Positions 256 through 7,895 of a DNA stretch of 17,021 nt are shown piece by piece. The stretch is from UHGV virus genome UHGV-1579666. One strand, given 5' to 3'. Source of the DNA: a virus. Position 1 is the stretch's first letter. Each line of letters opens with the position of its first letter. The notes below the pieces were generated by a model that saw nothing but the letters and a program-made list of their open reading frames with translations, was not told the DNA's origin and ran no database searches. Both the position numbers and the translations under genes were made by a program.

Positions 256-330
256 GGGTCAGTCGTATAAAGGTCATTACGGAAGGCTGTTAACCTTCTT
301 ATCGTGGCTCGATCCCACGCTGTCCCGCCA
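256..330 (+). tRNA. tRNA-like gene, anticodon GUU (Asn) by manual cloverleaf folding; encoded CCA end
   Basis: Acceptor stem GGGTCAG/CTGTCCC (one T-T mismatch), D-loop with GG, perfect anticodon stem GAAGG/CCTTC with loop CTGTTAA, T-arm CGTGG-CTCGATC-CCACG, discriminator G and CCA at 328-330. Deviations: C at position 54, acceptor mismatch at 4-69. Confidence 0.5.
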
Positions 331-335
331 AACAT

Positions 336-411
336 GCTGGTTTAGCTCCAATGGTAGAGCGGTCGCCTTGTAAGCGAATGGGTAGCGGTTCAAGTCCGTT
401 AACCAGCACCA
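336..411 (+). tRNA. tRNA-like gene, anticodon UGU (Thr) by manual cloverleaf folding; encoded CCA end
   Basis: Perfect 7-bp acceptor stem GCTGGTT/AACCAGC, D-stem GCTC/GAGC with GG in the loop, anticodon loop CTTGTAA, T-loop TTCAAGT, CCA at 409-411. Deviations: C at position 14, G-A mismatch at 27-43. Confidence 0.55.
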
Positions 412-1895: not shown

Positions 1896-1926
1896 AGCTG
1901 CCCATATCGATGGGCAACTCATGCAA

Positions 1927-2220
1927 TTATTGTGAGCAATACACACGCGCTTCCAGCGGAGTATAAATGCCTAAAGTAATAAAACCGAGCAATCCATTTA
2001 CGAATGTTTGCTGGGTTTCTGTTTTAACAACATTTTCTGCGCCGCCACAAATTTTGGCTGCATCAACAGTTTTCTCCTGTCCAATTCCCGAAACGAAGAA
2101 GTGATGGGTGATGGTTTCCTTTGGTGTTACTGCTGTCGGTTTGTTTCCAACAGTAAACGTCTGTTGAGCACATCCTGTAATAAGCATTGCCAGAGCGGCA
2201 GAAAACAACATTTTTTTCAT
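1927..2220 (-). CDS. bor: Bor outer-membrane lipoprotein (serum-resistance lysogenic conversion protein), 97 aa
   Basis: Minus-strand ORF; start taken at MKKMLFSAALAMLITGC (lipobox LITGC) with an AGGA Shine-Dalgarno upstream. The ORF track's longer 113-aa version has 16 extra N-terminal residues and no better ribosome-binding site. Confidence 0.9.
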   Translation of the reverse strand: MKKMLFSAALAMLITGCAQQTFTVGNKPTAVTPKETITHHFFVSGIGQEKTVDAAKICGGAENVVKTETQQTFVNGLLGFITLGIYTPLEARVYCSQ

Positions 2221-2578
2221 CTTATTATCCTGCATTGTTAAAAACGGCAGAATCCTATGTGACAACAATTAAACGATAGTTAAATGGATTGATGAAAATT
2301 AAAACTATATAGGTGTACGCTCAGACTATTGGAGGAAGTTGGGGACACTCAGAATCCTGTGGAATGAAATAAACCGCTCTATCAGTCTATTACCCTTTTA
2401 GCTGCGCTGTATCGTCGCCGTATTCCCGCATTAACCATGACCGTAGCCCGACGGGGAATTCCTTCTGCGTGAGTGTGCGGGAATAATCAAAAACGATGCA
2501 CACCGGGGTTACCGGGTACACATATTTCATCATGCCAGCGAGTCCGGTTCTGGCACGGAAGAAACCGGACGTTATGAT

Positions 2579-2989
2579 TTAGTGCGGAAATATTTGTGTA
2601 GTGTTCTGAATGTTCTCAGTAAAGAGTAATGAATTATCAAAGGTATAGTAATACCTTTTGTTTTCGTGGATATTTGTAATCCATCTGAAAACCCCTGCTG
2701 TAGCAAGATTTTTCCTGTATTCGTAAAATGATAACTCTCCTGATTTGAATCCTTTTAAGGTGGCTTCTATAAGGCATTTATTTTTTGAAAATCTTACATT
2801 TACAACCTTACCCTGTCCTTTTATTAAAACCGTATTATCGTTTTCAAGAACAAGATGAATATTCTCTGTGGCTAAATAGTAAATGTAATGTGAGACATTG
2901 TGACGTTTTAGTTCAGAATAAAACCAGTGATAGTTTAAATTATTTCGCACTTTATCGAATATTTGTTTAAAAATGGCAACCTGAGCCAT
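2579..2989 (-). CDS. Hypothetical AT-rich accessory protein, DUF1398/YbcV-like (family assignment from memory); about 136 aa from the second Met
   Basis: Minus-strand ORF 2579-3004. A GGAAGG Shine-Dalgarno precedes the second ATG (protein [14 protein letters not shown]...), so start placed at 2989; the first ATG at 3004 is also possible. N/K/Y/I-rich composition. Confidence 0.6.
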
Positions 2990-3046
2990 TGTAGTACCTT
3001 CCATGTGATATGAGGGTACCTAGTCTGCACGATTATCTAAATTGCT

Positions 3047-3280
3047 TCAATCTGGTCTGACCTGCTTTCTGAGCAATTCAGTAATGTCACTCTTTTCTTT
3101 GTTTGCTTCAGGCGAAACTCTTTTTTCTGAGCACAGTCTCCGGCGGCAGGCTTCAATGACCCAGGCTGAGAAATTCCCGGACCCTTTTTGATCAAGAGCG
3201 ATGTTAATTTGTTCAATCATTTGGTTAGGAAAGCGGATGTTGCGGGTTGTTGTTCTGCGGGTTCTGTTCTTCGTTGACAT
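3047..3280 (-). CDS. Small basic protein with a ribbon-helix-helix-like core, YlcI/DUF3950-like (from memory); putative DNA-binding regulator
   Basis: 77-aa minus-strand ORF with a basic N-terminus (MSTKNRTRRTTTRN) followed by IRFPNQMIEQINIALDQKGSGNFSAWVIEACRRRL, which has the strand-helix-helix pattern of Arc/CopG-type proteins. Lies 42-57 nt upstream of the DUF1398-like gene on the same strand. Confidence 0.55.
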   Translation of the reverse strand: MSTKNRTRRTTTRNIRFPNQMIEQINIALDQKGSGNFSAWVIEACRRRLCSEKRVSPEANKEKSDITELLRKQVRPD

Positions 3281-3449
3281 GAGGTTGCCCTGTATTCAGT
3301 GTCGCTGATTTGTATTGTCTGAAGTTGTTTTTACGTTAAGTTGATGCAGATCAATTAATACGATACCTGCGTCATAATTGATTATTTGACGTGGTTTGAT
3401 GGCGTAGATGCACGTTGTGACATGCAGATGATAATTATTATCATTTTGC

Positions 3450-3668
3450 GGGTCCTTTCCGGCGATCCGACAGGTTACGGGGCGGCGACCTCGCGGGTTT
3501 TCGCTATTTATGAAAATTTTCCGGTTTAAGGCGTTTCCGTTCTTCTTCGTCGTAACTTAATGTTTTTATTTAAAATACCCCCTGAAAAGAAAGGAAACGA
3601 CAGGTGCTGAAAACGGGCTTTTTGGCCTCTGTCGTTTCCTTTCTCTGTTTTTGTCCGTGGAATGAACA
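3450..3668 (+). other. cos: cos region: cosQ (GGGTCCT, 3450-3456), cosN (3480-3491), cosB with R3/I1/R2/R1 elements (about 3492-3668)
   Basis: GGGCGGCGACCT at 3480-3491 is the lambda 12-nt cohesive-end sequence; GGGTCCT lies about 24 bp upstream; repeated CGTTTCC-type elements in both orientations (about 3531-3549, 3589-3603, 3629-3645) flank an AT-rich stretch, directly upstream of Nu1. Confidence 0.9.
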
Positions 3669-4188
3669 ATGGAAGTCAACAAAAAGCAGCTGGCTGACAT
3701 TTTCGGTGCGAGTATCCGTACCATTCAGAACTGGCAGGAACAGGGAATGCCCGTTCTGCGAGGCGGTGGCAAGGGTAATGAGGTGCTTTATGACTCTGCC
3801 GCCGTTATAAGATGGTATGCCGAAAGGGATGCTGAAATTGAGAACGAAAAGCTGCGCCGGGAAGTTGAAGAACTGCGGCAGGCCAGCGAGACAGATCTCC
3901 AGCCAGGGACTATTGAGTACGAACGCCATCGACTTACGCGTGCGCAGGCCGACGCACAGGAGCTGAAAAATGCCAGAGACTCCGCTGAAGTGGTGGAAAC
4001 CGCATTCTGTACTTTCGTGCTGTCGCGGATCGCAGGTGAAATTGCCAGTATTCTCGACGGGATCCCCCTGTCGGTGCAGCGGCGTTTTCCGGAACTGGAA
4101 AACCGACATGTTGATTTCCTGAAACGGGATATCATCAAAGCCATGAACAAAGCAGCCGCGCTGGATGAACTGATACCGGGGTTGCTGA

Positions 4189-4214
<26 letters not shown>
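3669..4214 (+). CDS. nu1: Terminase small subunit Nu1
   Basis: 181-aa ORF beginning MEVNKKQLADIFGASIRTIQNWQEQGMPV (winged helix-turn-helix N-terminus), immediately downstream of cosB. Confidence 0.95.

Positions 4215-7895
<3,681 letters not shown>

What the first reader, a model, noticed from the sequence alone, without database searches (positions are those of the whole stretch)
2579..3280. Two-gene minus-strand accessory cassette next to cos: small RHH-like DNA-binding protein followed by an AT-rich DUF1398-like protein
A 77-aa basic protein with a ribbon-helix-helix-like core lies 42-57 nt upstream of a roughly 136-aa AT-rich protein of unknown function, both against the late operon and between bor and cos. 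A small DNA-binding protein followed by a larger effector is the layout of toxin-antitoxin and some prophage-encoded exclusion modules; the AT-rich composition suggests horizontal acquisition. This is the best candidate in the window for uncharacterised function. I have no sequence evidence for toxin or nuclease motifs; the idea rests on architecture alone.
Basis: inference. Interest (0 to 1): 0.55.

Follow-up and report, generated by a model that had tools for sequence, protein, structure and literature searches.

The report
Lambda-type ynfO–ydfO accessory gene pair
The two minus-strand genes between bor and cos are real, but they are the already catalogued ynfO/ylcI (DUF3950) and ydfO/ybcV (DUF1398) genes of phage lambda and the E. 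coli K-12 cryptic prophages, and comparative evidence shows they are two independent accessory genes rather than a toxin–antitoxin or exclusion cassette.

Summary
A 77-aa basic protein (3047-3280, minus) and a 136/141-aa AT-rich protein (2579-2989/3004, minus) lie between bor and cosN (3480-3491), antisense to the late operon, 57 or 42 nt apart.

They are not new. The pair matches K-12 Qin ynfO-ydfO in gene lengths and spacing. Lambda and DLP12 carry the same two genes with ybcW inserted between them. The families are DUF3950/YlcI_YnfO and DUF1398, and DUF1398 has a solved structure (YdfO, PDB 2HH8).

Both genes are under purifying selection, so both encode real proteins.

The toxin-antitoxin/exclusion reading is not supported:
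- DUF1398 occurs alone in 31 fetched loci, including K-12 ycgX and Klebsiella.
- DUF3950 occurs in 155 phage records, DUF1398 in only 43. The two Stx-type phages examined carry DUF3950 alone.
- Lambda has an opposite-strand gene between the two.
- A reported PdhR site sits just upstream of the DUF1398 gene in the K-12 homologues.
- The DUF1398 fold resembles no toxin or nuclease, and PADLOC gives no significant hit.

A ribbon-helix-helix fold for the small protein is plausible but unproven.

Best reading: two independent lysogen-expressed accessory genes ("morons") of unknown function.

Novelty: already known. Interest: low.

The parts
3047..3280 (-). ynfO/ylcI-type gene: 77-aa basic protein of the DUF3950 / YlcI_YnfO family. 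It has a near-invariant 50-aa N-terminal core (a basic arm, then a probable strand-helix-helix) and a hypervariable C-terminal tail.
   Evidence: Pfam PF13132 E=5e-21 and NCBIfam NF041551 35.7 bits against a cut-off of 30. RefSeq names the 99.3%-identical locus 'YlcI/YnfO family protein'. It has the same length as K-12 YnfO and differs from it at 2 residues. Core dN/dS is 0.04-0.10. The core is invariant and the tails vary. AF2 gives helices 19-32 and 34-54.
2579..2989 (-). ydfO/ybcV-type gene: 136-aa DUF1398 protein (alternative upstream ATG at 3004 gives 141 aa). It is a cytoplasmic alpha/beta protein with the YdfO fold, a tandem (alpha-alpha-beta-beta-beta) x2.
3050..3066 (-). PdhR-box-like palindrome AGCAGGTCAGACCAGAT. 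It overlaps the last codons of the ynfO-type gene and lies about 60-77 nt upstream of the DUF1398 start. It is followed by a GATAAT -10-like hexamer at 3037-3032. I read this as the DUF1398 gene's own regulatory region (inference).
   Evidence: gSELEX PdhR sites are reported in K-12 in the ynfO>ydfO region (AAcaGGTcagACCAgaT) and between ybcV and ybcW. ybcV mRNA falls 10-fold in a pdhR mutant (PMC7660256). The core GGTCAGACCAGAT is conserved upstream of DUF1398 in the Qin type, in the lambda type and in a phage that lacks ylcI. By sequence alone it is a weak match, with more than 3 mismatches to the 17-mer consensus.
3067..3134 (-). Mosaic junction. This segment encodes the YnfO-type C-terminal tail. 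In lambda and DLP12 it is replaced by roughly 575 bp carrying ybcW (lambdap79) on the opposite strand.
   Evidence: Four-way alignment of the window, Qin, DLP12 and lambda. Annotations.
3350..3382 (.). Inverted repeat of 13-nt arms (ATCAATTAATACG / CGTCATAATTGAT, 85% complementary, 7-nt spacer), 70-100 nt upstream of the ynfO-type start. It is a candidate operator or promoter element, by inference only.
   Evidence: the repeat finder I1. It lies in a 120-bp block that is nearly invariant across the window, Qin, DLP12 and lambda. The block is absent upstream of the Stx-phage homologues, where similarity starts at the ATG.
3480..3491 (+). cosN cohesive-end sequence GGGCGGCGACCT. It is context only and marks the boundary of the accessory region.
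   Evidence: Exact single match; 0 matches in 200 shuffles.

Best explanation
The region holds two separate accessory genes ('morons') that sit side by side in the accessory-gene slot between the lysis genes and cos of a lambda-like prophage. It is the same arrangement as ynfO-ydfO in the E. coli K-12 Qin prophage.

Gene 1 (ynfO/ylcI type, DUF3950) encodes a small basic protein. Its conserved 50-residue core most likely forms a dimeric ribbon-helix-helix-type DNA-binding domain with a basic N-terminal arm. I infer that it is made from its own leftward promoter in the lysogen, antisense to the late operon, and acts as a transcriptional regulator. Its target is unknown. The inverted repeat at 3350-3382 is one candidate operator.

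Gene 2 (ydfO/ybcV type, DUF1398) encodes a non-enzymatic-looking alpha/beta protein with the otherwise unique YdfO fold. In the K-12 homologues, published work reports PdhR binding in the ynfO-ydfO region, and a matching box lies just upstream of this gene. Published expression data show the K-12 copies respond to solvent or ionic-liquid stress and to T4 MotB over-expression. From the title of that paper I infer loss of H-NS silencing. The lambda copy is dispensable for lytic growth. I infer that it acts by binding a host partner or ligand in the lysogen, not as a toxin.

Shown here: gene identity, family membership, fold, purifying selection, independent distribution of the two families, and conservation of the upstream box. 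Inferred: DNA binding, RHH dimerisation, separate transcription, and any physiological role.
For: Identity:
- K-12 Qin has ynfO (234 nt), a 57-nt gap and ydfO (411 nt), next to nohA. The gene lengths and spacing are the same as in the window, and the two align base for base.
- Part of the 1.8-kb query (bor to the nu1 start) is found in 5025 of 5426 complete E. coli genomes; 892 carry at least 80% of it.
- Lambda, 434, HK629/630 and DE3 carry both genes.

Independence of the two genes:
1. DUF1398 without DUF3950 within about 4 kb: K-12 ycgX beside bluR and 31 fetched loci, including Citrobacter, Klebsiella, Kluyvera, Raoultella, Pseudocitrobacter and Salmonella diarizonae. In Klebsiella pneumoniae it follows what look to me like yeeE/yeeD-type genes, my reading of the ORFs, not a family search.
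2. One phage-like contig has ybcW and ybcV but no ylcI.
3. DUF3950 is in 155 phage records and DUF1398 in 43. In the Stx-type phages Stx2a_WGPS8 and JLK-2012 the DUF3950 gene is the only opposite-strand gene between the lysis genes and HNH-TerS-TerL, with no DUF1398. Similarity to the window copy starts at the ATG.
4. In lambda and DLP12, roughly 575 bp with ybcW on the other strand separates the two genes.

Own regulation of DUF1398:
- PdhR gSELEX sites and a 10-fold drop of ybcV mRNA in a pdhR mutant (PMC7660256).
- The box travels with DUF1398.
- ydfO is induced about 100-fold by [C2mim]Cl (PMC4077768).
- ybcV and ybcW rise more than 1000-fold on T4 MotB expression (PMC7827196).

Not a toxin:
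- PADLOC gives only one insignificant hit (Csx23, E=0.025) and there is no toxin Pfam hit.
- lambdap78 is non-essential by CRISPRi (PMC10695390).
- ybcV was expressed alone from pACYCDuet in BL21(DE3) (PMC7181518).
- A Keio ybcV::kan mutant exists (PMC3945230).
- YdfO protein was produced for NMR (2HH8).

Both genes are under purifying selection.
Against: - No experiment assigns a function to either protein, so the regulator and binding-protein roles are inference.
- The RHH fold is not statistically supported: AF2 pLDDT 68 with no strand in the monomer, Foldseek E>5, hhalign probability 2%.
- The consensus scan found no minus-strand sigma-70 promoter and no intrinsic terminator between or after the genes. 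Read-through co-transcription from the ynfO-type promoter into the DUF1398 gene is therefore not excluded in this arrangement.
- Among the 80 closest ynfO-type viral contigs, 79 have DUF1398 directly downstream. These are near-identical relatives, so this reflects common descent.
- The over-expression and deletion data come from strains that still carry ylcI/ynfO paralogues. A cross-protecting antitoxin is not formally excluded.
Confidence: 0.75

Rival explanations
1. Regulator-target pair without toxicity. In the Qin-type arrangement the YnfO-type DNA-binding protein controls transcription of the adjacent DUF1398 gene, or is co-transcribed with it. The two would then form a loose functional unit although each can also exist alone.
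For: The genes are on the same strand with only a 42-57 nt gap. No terminator-like site lies between them. 79 of the 80 closest viral contigs keep the pair. The DUF1398 upstream box overlaps the 3' end of the ynfO-type gene.
Against: The families are distributed independently. Two examined Stx-type phages have DUF3950 only, and DUF1398 stands alone in ycgX, Klebsiella, Kluyvera and other loci. In lambda and DLP12 the opposite-strand ybcW separates them. A host factor, PdhR, is the regulator reported for ybcV. The 79/80 linkage is among near-identical sequences.
Confidence: 0.15
2. Type II toxin-antitoxin or abortive-infection/exclusion module. The 77-aa RHH protein would be the antitoxin and repressor, and the DUF1398 protein the toxin or effector.
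For: The architecture fits: a small DNA-binding-like protein upstream of a larger protein, in a prophage accessory region. There is a weak PHROG hit of the small protein to a HicB-like antitoxin family, E=0.007. A non-significant Foldseek hit to the ParD2 antitoxin appears among the top hits.
Against: Conserved pairing fails in both directions. The gap is 42-57 nt rather than an overlap, and lambda has an opposite-strand gene in between. DUF1398 has no similarity to any toxin or nuclease family or fold, and PADLOC gives no significant hit. ybcV was over-expressed alone and YdfO was produced for NMR. The putative toxin has its own reported PdhR site. In Klebsiella DUF1398 is a solitary gene among what look to me like ordinary chromosomal genes.
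Confidence: 0.05
3. The small protein serves the phage's own late or packaging programme. For example, it could bind near cos or the packaging genes, or act as a roadblock or antisense element to late read-through in the prophage. This would explain its fixed position just before the packaging module.
For: The DUF3950 gene lies immediately before the packaging genes, on the opposite strand, in phages with unrelated packaging modules: lambda Nu1/A here, HNH-TerS-TerL in Stx phages. Its core is extremely conserved.
Against: I know of no requirement for this region in lambda growth or packaging (memory). The published CRISPRi map that I read did not target the unannotated ylcI-type gene. The upstream DNA is not conserved between the lambda-type and Stx-type copies, so no shared nearby binding site is evident. 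Its position is also simply the usual accessory-gene slot.
Confidence: 0.05

Closest known systems
E. coli K-12 Qin prophage ynfO (b4533) - ydfO (b1549)
   Same: Same order, strand relationship and neighbour (nohA/nu1 across cos). Same gene lengths (234 and 411 nt) and the same 57-nt gap. YnfO differs at 2 of 77 residues and YdfO is about 76-80% identical. The PdhR box sits at the same place.
   Different: Only sequence divergence. The window is in an apparently intact lambda-like late region with bor/iss, whereas Qin is a decayed prophage with gnsB downstream.
Phage lambda right end: lambdap78 (ybcV type), lambdap79 (ybcW) and an unannotated ylcI-type ORF (lambda 48109-48303, complement); also DLP12 ybcV-ybcW-ylcI
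   Same: The same two families lie in the same slot between bor and cos. The promoter-proximal 120 bp and the first 50 codons of the small gene are nearly identical. The DUF1398 protein is 76% identical.
   Different: Lambda and DLP12 have roughly 575 bp with ybcW on the opposite strand between the two genes, and a short 64-aa YlcI with a different tail. A 2026 preprint reports ybcW/lambdap79 as the activator of the Vulcan NADase defence, and escape phages that lose it, which its authors attribute to likely recombination with Qin. That exchange would give the window's arrangement.
YdfO solution structure, PDB 2HH8 (DUF1398, 'YdfO-like' fold)
Arc/Mnt-type ribbon-helix-helix repressors and RHH antitoxins (ParD, HicB C-terminal domain)
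   Same: The size fits. There is a basic N-terminal arm, an N-I-R-F-P motif in the register of Arc N-L-R-W-P, a glycine-containing loop, and two helices. Weak, non-significant hits go to a HicB-like PHROG, to ParD2 and to TCP domains.
   Different: There is no statistically significant sequence or structure match. The beta-strand is not formed in the monomer model. Dimerisation and DNA binding are untested.
Lambda morons bor and lom
   Same: It lies in the same inter-module region, is transcribed against the late operon, has deviant (AT-rich) composition, shows presence/absence polymorphism among relatives and is dispensable for lytic growth.
   Different: bor has a defined product (a lipoprotein) and phenotype (serum resistance). 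No phenotype is known for these two genes. The consensus scan did not confirm their promoters or terminators.

Membership tests
DUF1398 (Pfam PF07166; YbcV/YdfO/YcgX) | Score above the Pfam gathering threshold over the full-length domain | tested here: met
   147 bits against a cut-off of 22, E=3e-43, profile positions 1-119 of 119
DUF1398 (Pfam PF07166; YbcV/YdfO/YcgX) | YdfO fold, tandem (alpha-alpha-beta3) x2, as in PDB 2HH8 | tested here: met
DUF3950 / YlcI_YnfO family (PF13132, NF041551) | Score above the curated thresholds, with the conserved core including the NFS motif | tested here: met
   PF13132 74.6 bits against 25. NF041551 35.7 bits against 30. The core MIEQINIAL..GSGNFSAW is near-invariant in homologues
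Ribbon-helix-helix (Arc/MetJ) superfamily | Significant sequence or structure similarity to a known RHH domain | tested here: inconclusive
   No Pfam RHH hit even at E<=10. No PDB sequence hit. hhalign against Arc gives the right register but probability 2%. Foldseek top hits are TCP domains and ParD2 at E>5
Ribbon-helix-helix (Arc/MetJ) superfamily | Strand-helix-helix topology forming an intertwined dimer with an antiparallel beta-ribbon | not testable with these tools
   The monomer model gives helix 19-32 and helix 34-54 with no strand.
Type II toxin-antitoxin system | The two genes co-occur as a conserved pair across diverse genomes | tested here: not met
   DUF1398 alone in 31 fetched loci and at K-12 ycgX. 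DUF3950 in 155 phage records against 43 with DUF1398, with DUF3950 alone in two examined Stx-type phages
Type II toxin-antitoxin system | Compact bicistronic operon (overlapping or a few nt apart) under one autoregulated promoter | tested here: inconclusive
   The gap is 42-57 nt. In lambda and DLP12 an opposite-strand gene intervenes. A reported PdhR site lies upstream of the second gene. There are no transcript data for this locus
Type II toxin-antitoxin system | The effector belongs to a toxin family or has a toxin-like fold or motif | tested here: not met
Type II toxin-antitoxin system | The effector is toxic and is neutralised by its partner | not testable with these tools
   Indirect only. 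ybcV was over-expressed alone in BL21(DE3), and the passages I read report no toxicity. YdfO was produced for NMR. The hosts used carry ylcI paralogues
Known anti-phage defence systems (PADLOC-DB v2) | Match to a model of a known or candidate defence protein | tested here: not met
   The only hit is Csx23 at E=0.025 for DUF1398. There is none for the small protein
Phage 'moron' (independently expressed accessory gene) | Inserted between functional modules, with deviant composition, present or absent among close relatives, and dispensable for lytic growth | tested here: met
   Position and orientation. GC 31-33% against 53-57%. Presence/absence and the ybcW indel. lambdap78 is non-essential
Phage 'moron' (independently expressed accessory gene) | Own promoter and terminator | tested here: inconclusive
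   The consensus scan finds no minus-strand promoter or terminator in 1900-3700. The hairpin after the stop codon is not better than shuffles, z=-0.7. Published regulation of the K-12 homologues implies a promoter

The most novel reading that the evidence does not exclude
The near-invariant 50-residue DUF3950 core may be a prophage-encoded DNA-binding factor that acts in phage-phage or phage-defence conflicts. It sits as the lone antisense gene before unrelated packaging modules in the lambda-like and Stx-type phages examined. It could, for example, repress or block late or packaging functions of superinfecting relatives. The neighbouring DUF1398 platform protein could be a PdhR/H-NS-controlled binder of a host or defence component. 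The slot between them is reported to be shaped by defence pressure: ybcW is described as the trigger of the Vulcan NADase system and is missing here.
Probability: 0.1. Interest if true: 0.55.

Novelty: already known. Interest (0 to 1): 0.18.

Why it matters
As a discovery it matters little. The pair is annotated in thousands of E. coli genomes and in phage lambda, and the toxin-antitoxin idea does not survive comparative analysis.

There is residual value. These are among the last lambda and K-12 prophage genes with no assigned function. The comparison made here gives concrete, cheap experiments:
- The small gene is an autonomous, very strongly conserved module at the lysis-packaging junction.
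- The DUF1398 gene carries its own PdhR-box region.
- The window has the ybcW-less form of a locus where ybcW is reported to trigger a defence system.

The work also flags annotation errors. 'Head protein' and 'envelope protein' labels are attached to lambdap78 and PHROG 413. The ylcI-type gene is unannotated in the lambda RefSeq record. One paper appears to confuse YdfO with YfdO.

Tried and rejected
- Toxin/nuclease search. Pfam, NCBIfam, PHROGs and PADLOC on both proteins gave only DUF1398 and DUF3950, a 'head protein' PHROG label with no supporting evidence, and sub-threshold noise: HEPN_AbiA_CTD E=0.014 (15.8 bits against a cut-off of 27) and Csx23 E=0.025. I rejected these as chance.
- RHH proof. 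PDB sequence searches with the single protein and with a profile found nothing. Pfam at E<=10 found nothing. hhalign against Arc was not significant. The monomer AF2 model was of low confidence and its Foldseek hits were not significant.
- A tblastn hit of the small protein to a Pasteurella phage 'transcriptional repressor' lies on the strand opposite the annotated gene. I discarded it.
- 'YdfO over-expression increases oxidative-stress resistance' is stated in PMC4077768. The cited paper, PMC3105296, never mentions ydfO and reports YfdK, YfdO and YfdS. It looks like a name mix-up, so I did not use it.
- ylcI 'mutations' in resequencing papers carry no functional information. They may be paralogue mapping effects.
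- Promoter/terminator scan. There were no minus-strand calls, and total counts were within shuffle expectation. The hairpin after the DUF1398 stop is not significant. The PdhR consensus search with 3 mismatches or fewer does not find the box, so PdhR binding rests on the published K-12 experiment.
- Many DUF1398/YlcI 'hits' in Pseudomonas, Bacillus-group, Flavobacterium and similar assemblies look like lambda DNA, probably contamination. They are 76% identical to the window protein, as lambda's copy is, and sit on contigs of about 3.5 kb or 48.5 kb. I ignored them for taxonomic distribution.
- The AFDB50 fold library was unavailable. BFVD gave nothing significant.
- The first attempt at a genome scan with the 16-sequence alignment failed for lack of a conserved stretch. 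A 6-sequence alignment worked.
- The 47-aa ORF at 2390-2533 has no family hit, its ATG is not conserved in lambda or DLP12, and RefSeq does not annotate it. I treat it as not a gene.
Full report
**1. What is there**

The window is the late region of a lambda-like prophage.
- Two tRNAs lie at 256-411.
- S, R, Rz and Rz1 are on the plus strand (654-1895).
- A bor/iss lipoprotein gene is on the minus strand (1927-2268).
- cosN (GGGCGGCGACCT) is at 3480-3491.
- nu1 (3669-4214) and terminase A (4189-6114) follow.

- The first is a 77-aa basic protein at 3047-3280.
- The second is a 141-aa ORF at 2579-3004. Its likelier start is the second ATG at 2989 (136 aa). That ATG has a GGAAGG Shine-Dalgarno 7 nt upstream, aligns with the start of distant homologues, and is the start RefSeq uses.
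- The gap is therefore 57 nt, or 42 nt from the first ATG.
- The larger gene is 31-33% GC against 53-57% for the packaging genes.

**2. Identity**

The larger protein is a full-length DUF1398 member (PF07166, E=3e-43). It matches the solved YdfO structure 2HH8 at E=1e-69. The small protein is a DUF3950 / YlcI_YnfO family member (PF13132 E=5e-21; NF041551 above threshold). A 99.3%-identical E. coli chromosome is annotated with exactly these names.

The arrangement matches E. coli K-12 Qin in gene lengths and spacing: nohA, ynfO (234 nt), 57 nt, ydfO (411 nt).

Lambda itself and DLP12 carry the same two genes.
- In lambda the DUF1398 gene is lambdap78. It is annotated as a 177-aa GTG-extended ORF and labelled 'head protein' or 'putative envelope protein'.
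- The ylcI-type ORF (64 aa, lambda 48109-48303, complement) is not annotated in NC_001416.

Part of the 1.8-kb query around the pair occurs in 5025 of 5426 complete E. coli genomes, and 892 carry at least 80% of it.

**3. Are they real genes?**

Yes.
- DUF1398 has dN/dS 0.18-0.37 between the window, Qin, DLP12 and lambda copies at dS 0.36-0.67.
- The first 50 codons of the small gene have dN/dS 0.04-0.10 against Stx-phage copies at dS 0.7-1.6. That is very strong protein-level constraint.
- The small protein's first 50 residues or so are nearly invariant in the database. The C-terminal tail exists in at least six unrelated versions.
- Against the Stx-phage copies, nucleotide similarity begins at the ATG. 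The conserved unit is the coding core itself.

**4. Is it a two-gene cassette?**

The evidence says no.

(a) DUF1398 without DUF3950.
- K-12 has a third paralogue, ycgX, beside bluR with no YlcI-type gene nearby.
- In a scan of one genome per species, 31 DUF1398 loci had no DUF3950 ORF within about 4 kb. They include Citrobacter, other Escherichia species, Klebsiella, Kluyvera, Raoultella, Pseudocitrobacter and Salmonella diarizonae.
- In Klebsiella pneumoniae the gene is solitary and follows what look to me like yeeE/yeeD-type genes. That reading comes from the ORF translations, not from a family search.
- One phage-like contig has ybcW and ybcV beside a different small-terminase-like ORF and no ylcI.

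(b) DUF3950 without DUF1398.
- 155 phage records encode a YlcI-type protein and only 43 encode DUF1398.
- In Stx2a_WGPS8 and JLK-2012 the DUF3950 gene is the only opposite-strand gene between the lysis genes and an HNH-TerS-TerL packaging module. No DUF1398 is present.

(c) In lambda and DLP12, roughly 575 bp carrying ybcW on the opposite strand replaces window positions about 3067-3134 and separates the two genes.

(d) The DUF1398 gene keeps its own upstream block in all arrangements.
- The palindrome-containing sequence AGCAGGTCAGACCAGAT (3066-3050) overlaps the last codons of the ynfO-type gene here. The same core precedes ybcV in lambda and DLP12 and in the ylcI-less contig.
- In K-12, published gSELEX places PdhR in the ynfO>ydfO region and between ybcV and ybcW. 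ybcV mRNA drops 10-fold in a pdhR mutant (PMC7660256).
- By sequence alone the box is a weak PdhR match, so this point rests on the published experiment.

(e) Among the 80 closest ynfO-type viral contigs, 79 keep DUF1398 downstream, and one has an IS5 element in its place. These are 97-100% identical relatives, so the linkage reflects descent, not constraint.

**5. Structures**

The DUF1398 AF2 model is confident (pLDDT 88). It is a tandem repeat of alpha-alpha-beta-beta-beta.
- BFVD gives nothing significant.
- No catalytic motif is evident in the diverse alignment. That alignment is my reading, not a formal test.
- The family is small: 189 representatives at E<=1e-3 among 1.84 billion. Apart from partial matches in Epilithonimonas, the credible genome loci are all in Enterobacteriaceae.

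For the small protein, the AF2 monomer is of modest confidence (pLDDT 68). It shows helices 19-32, 34-54 and 59-72 after an unstructured basic N-terminus.
- The motif N-I-R-F-P followed by a helix aligns in register with N-L-R-W-P of the Arc repressor, but at 2% probability. I checked my recalled Arc sequence against the PDB first.
- The top Foldseek hits are TCP domains, which I recall as RHH-like, and the ParD2 antitoxin. All are non-significant.
- There is a weak HicB-like PHROG hit at E=0.007.
- An RHH dimer is therefore a reasonable but unproven reading. I could not model the dimer.

**6. Expression and phenotype data from the literature**

All of these concern homologues.
- ydfO is induced about 100-fold by the ionic liquid [C2mim]Cl (PMC4077768).
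- ybcV is up 11-fold in a sabinene-adapted strain. It was over-expressed alone from pACYCDuet in BL21(DE3), and neither benefit nor toxicity is reported in the passages I read (PMC7181518).
- ybcV and ybcW rise more than 1000-fold when T4 MotB is expressed (PMC7827196). The paper's title concerns altered H-NS repression, and I infer H-NS silencing of this AT-rich DNA.
- lambdap78 is non-essential in a lambda CRISPRi map (PMC10695390).
- A Keio ybcV::kan mutant is viable (PMC3945230).
- I rejected one claim. 'YdfO increases oxidative-stress resistance' cites a paper that is about YfdO of CPS-53.

**7. Mechanism**

My best reading is two independent accessory genes. I hold it at about 0.75.
- The small gene most likely encodes a dimeric DNA-binding regulator made in the lysogen from a leftward promoter within the 200 bp between cosN and its ATG.
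- That stretch contains a 120-bp block that is nearly invariant across the window, Qin, DLP12 and lambda. It also holds a 13-nt-arm inverted repeat at 3350-3382.
- The DUF1398 protein most likely acts by binding rather than catalysis and is expressed from its own stress- and PdhR-responsive promoter.

Which steps are shown: identity, fold, selection, independent distribution, and conservation of the upstream box. Which are inferred: DNA binding, separate transcripts, and any physiological role.

Rivals:
- A loose regulator-target pair, about 0.15.
- A role of the small protein in late or packaging control, about 0.05.

**8. Novelty and score**

The pair is already known and annotated, though functionally uncharacterised. 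Interest is low (0.18).

The most novel reading still open is that the autonomous, ultra-conserved DUF3950 core and/or the DUF1398 protein act in phage-phage or phage-defence conflict. The context for this is a 2026 preprint reporting that ybcW (lambdap79), the gene that sits between them in lambda, triggers the Vulcan NADase defence. Escape phages lose it, which the authors attribute to likely recombination with Qin. That exchange would produce the arrangement seen in this window. I put that reading at about 0.1.

Noticed in passing
window 3067-3134 (compare lambda 47738-47944, lambdap79/ybcW): The window has the ybcW-less (Qin-type) form of this locus. A 2026 preprint reports lambdap79/ybcW as the activator of the Vulcan NADase defence. 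Lambda-vir escapers lose it, which the authors attribute to likely recombination with Qin. That would give the junction seen here. This prophage may therefore be naturally invisible to that system.
   Followed up: partly
window 256-330 and 336-411 (+): tRNA-Asn(GTT) and tRNA-Thr(TGT) genes lie upstream of the holin gene, found by both ARAGORN and Rfam. I recall this as the usual phage tRNA slot downstream of Q in lambdoid and Stx phages (memory).
   Followed up: no
window 1927-2268 (-): The bor homologue is annotated 'iss, increased serum survival lipoprotein' in the 99.3%-identical E. coli genome. The mechanical ORF (113 aa from TTG) is longer than the annotated 97-aa product.
   Followed up: no
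L002 (lambda NC_001416) 2111-2644 and 3178-3372: Annotation problems in the lambda RefSeq record. lambdap78 is a 177-aa GTG-extended ORF called 'head protein' (older records say 'putative envelope protein'), although it is a 136-aa DUF1398 protein. The 64-aa ylcI-type ORF is not annotated at all. PHROG 413 carries the same 'head protein' label, which I suspect was propagated from this annotation.
   Followed up: partly
loci L014-L035, L046-L050 and many P-hits on contigs of about 3.5 kb: Assemblies labelled Pseudomonas, Brevibacillus, Flavobacterium, Bradyrhizobium and others contain lambda-type ybcV/ylcI on contigs of about 3.5 kb or about 48.5 kb. This looks like lambda control-DNA contamination. 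The 3.5-kb size matches my recollection of a nanopore control amplicon from the lambda right end. It inflates the apparent host range of both families.
   Followed up: partly
literature: PMC4077768 citing PMC3105296: The statement that YdfO over-expression increases oxidative-stress resistance appears to confuse YdfO (Qin) with YfdO (CPS-53). The cited paper never mentions ydfO.
   Followed up: yes
window 3281-3400 and 3427-3444: A 120-bp block upstream of the ynfO-type gene is nearly invariant across the window, Qin, DLP12 and lambda (one mismatch), while the flanks vary. It holds the inverted repeat at 3350-3382. A separate AT-rich palindrome (ATGATAAT.ATTATCAT, 3428-3444) lies closer to cosN. 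Whether these serve the gene's promoter or cos function (cosQ side) is not resolved.
   Followed up: partly
literature: PMC10695390, lambda CRISPRi map: lambdap79 scored 'essential' by CRISPRi although it is listed there as non-essential from earlier work. It lies on the late-transcript strand just before cos and nu1, so I suspect a polar block of late transcription rather than a requirement for the gene.
   Followed up: no
L054, L056, L063, L069 (Kluyvera and related), about 250-500 bp upstream of DUF1398, opposite strand: Several distant DUF1398 loci share a conserved divergent small ORF (roughly 74-105 aa, containing ...RKRLLAVQAALEI[AS]KA...). This may be a recurrent neighbour of chromosomal DUF1398 genes. 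I did not identify it.
   Followed up: no
L082 438-1454: In one viral contig an IS5-family transposase sits directly after the ynfO-type gene, where DUF1398 and bor would be. That prophage has lost the DUF1398 gene.
   Followed up: partly
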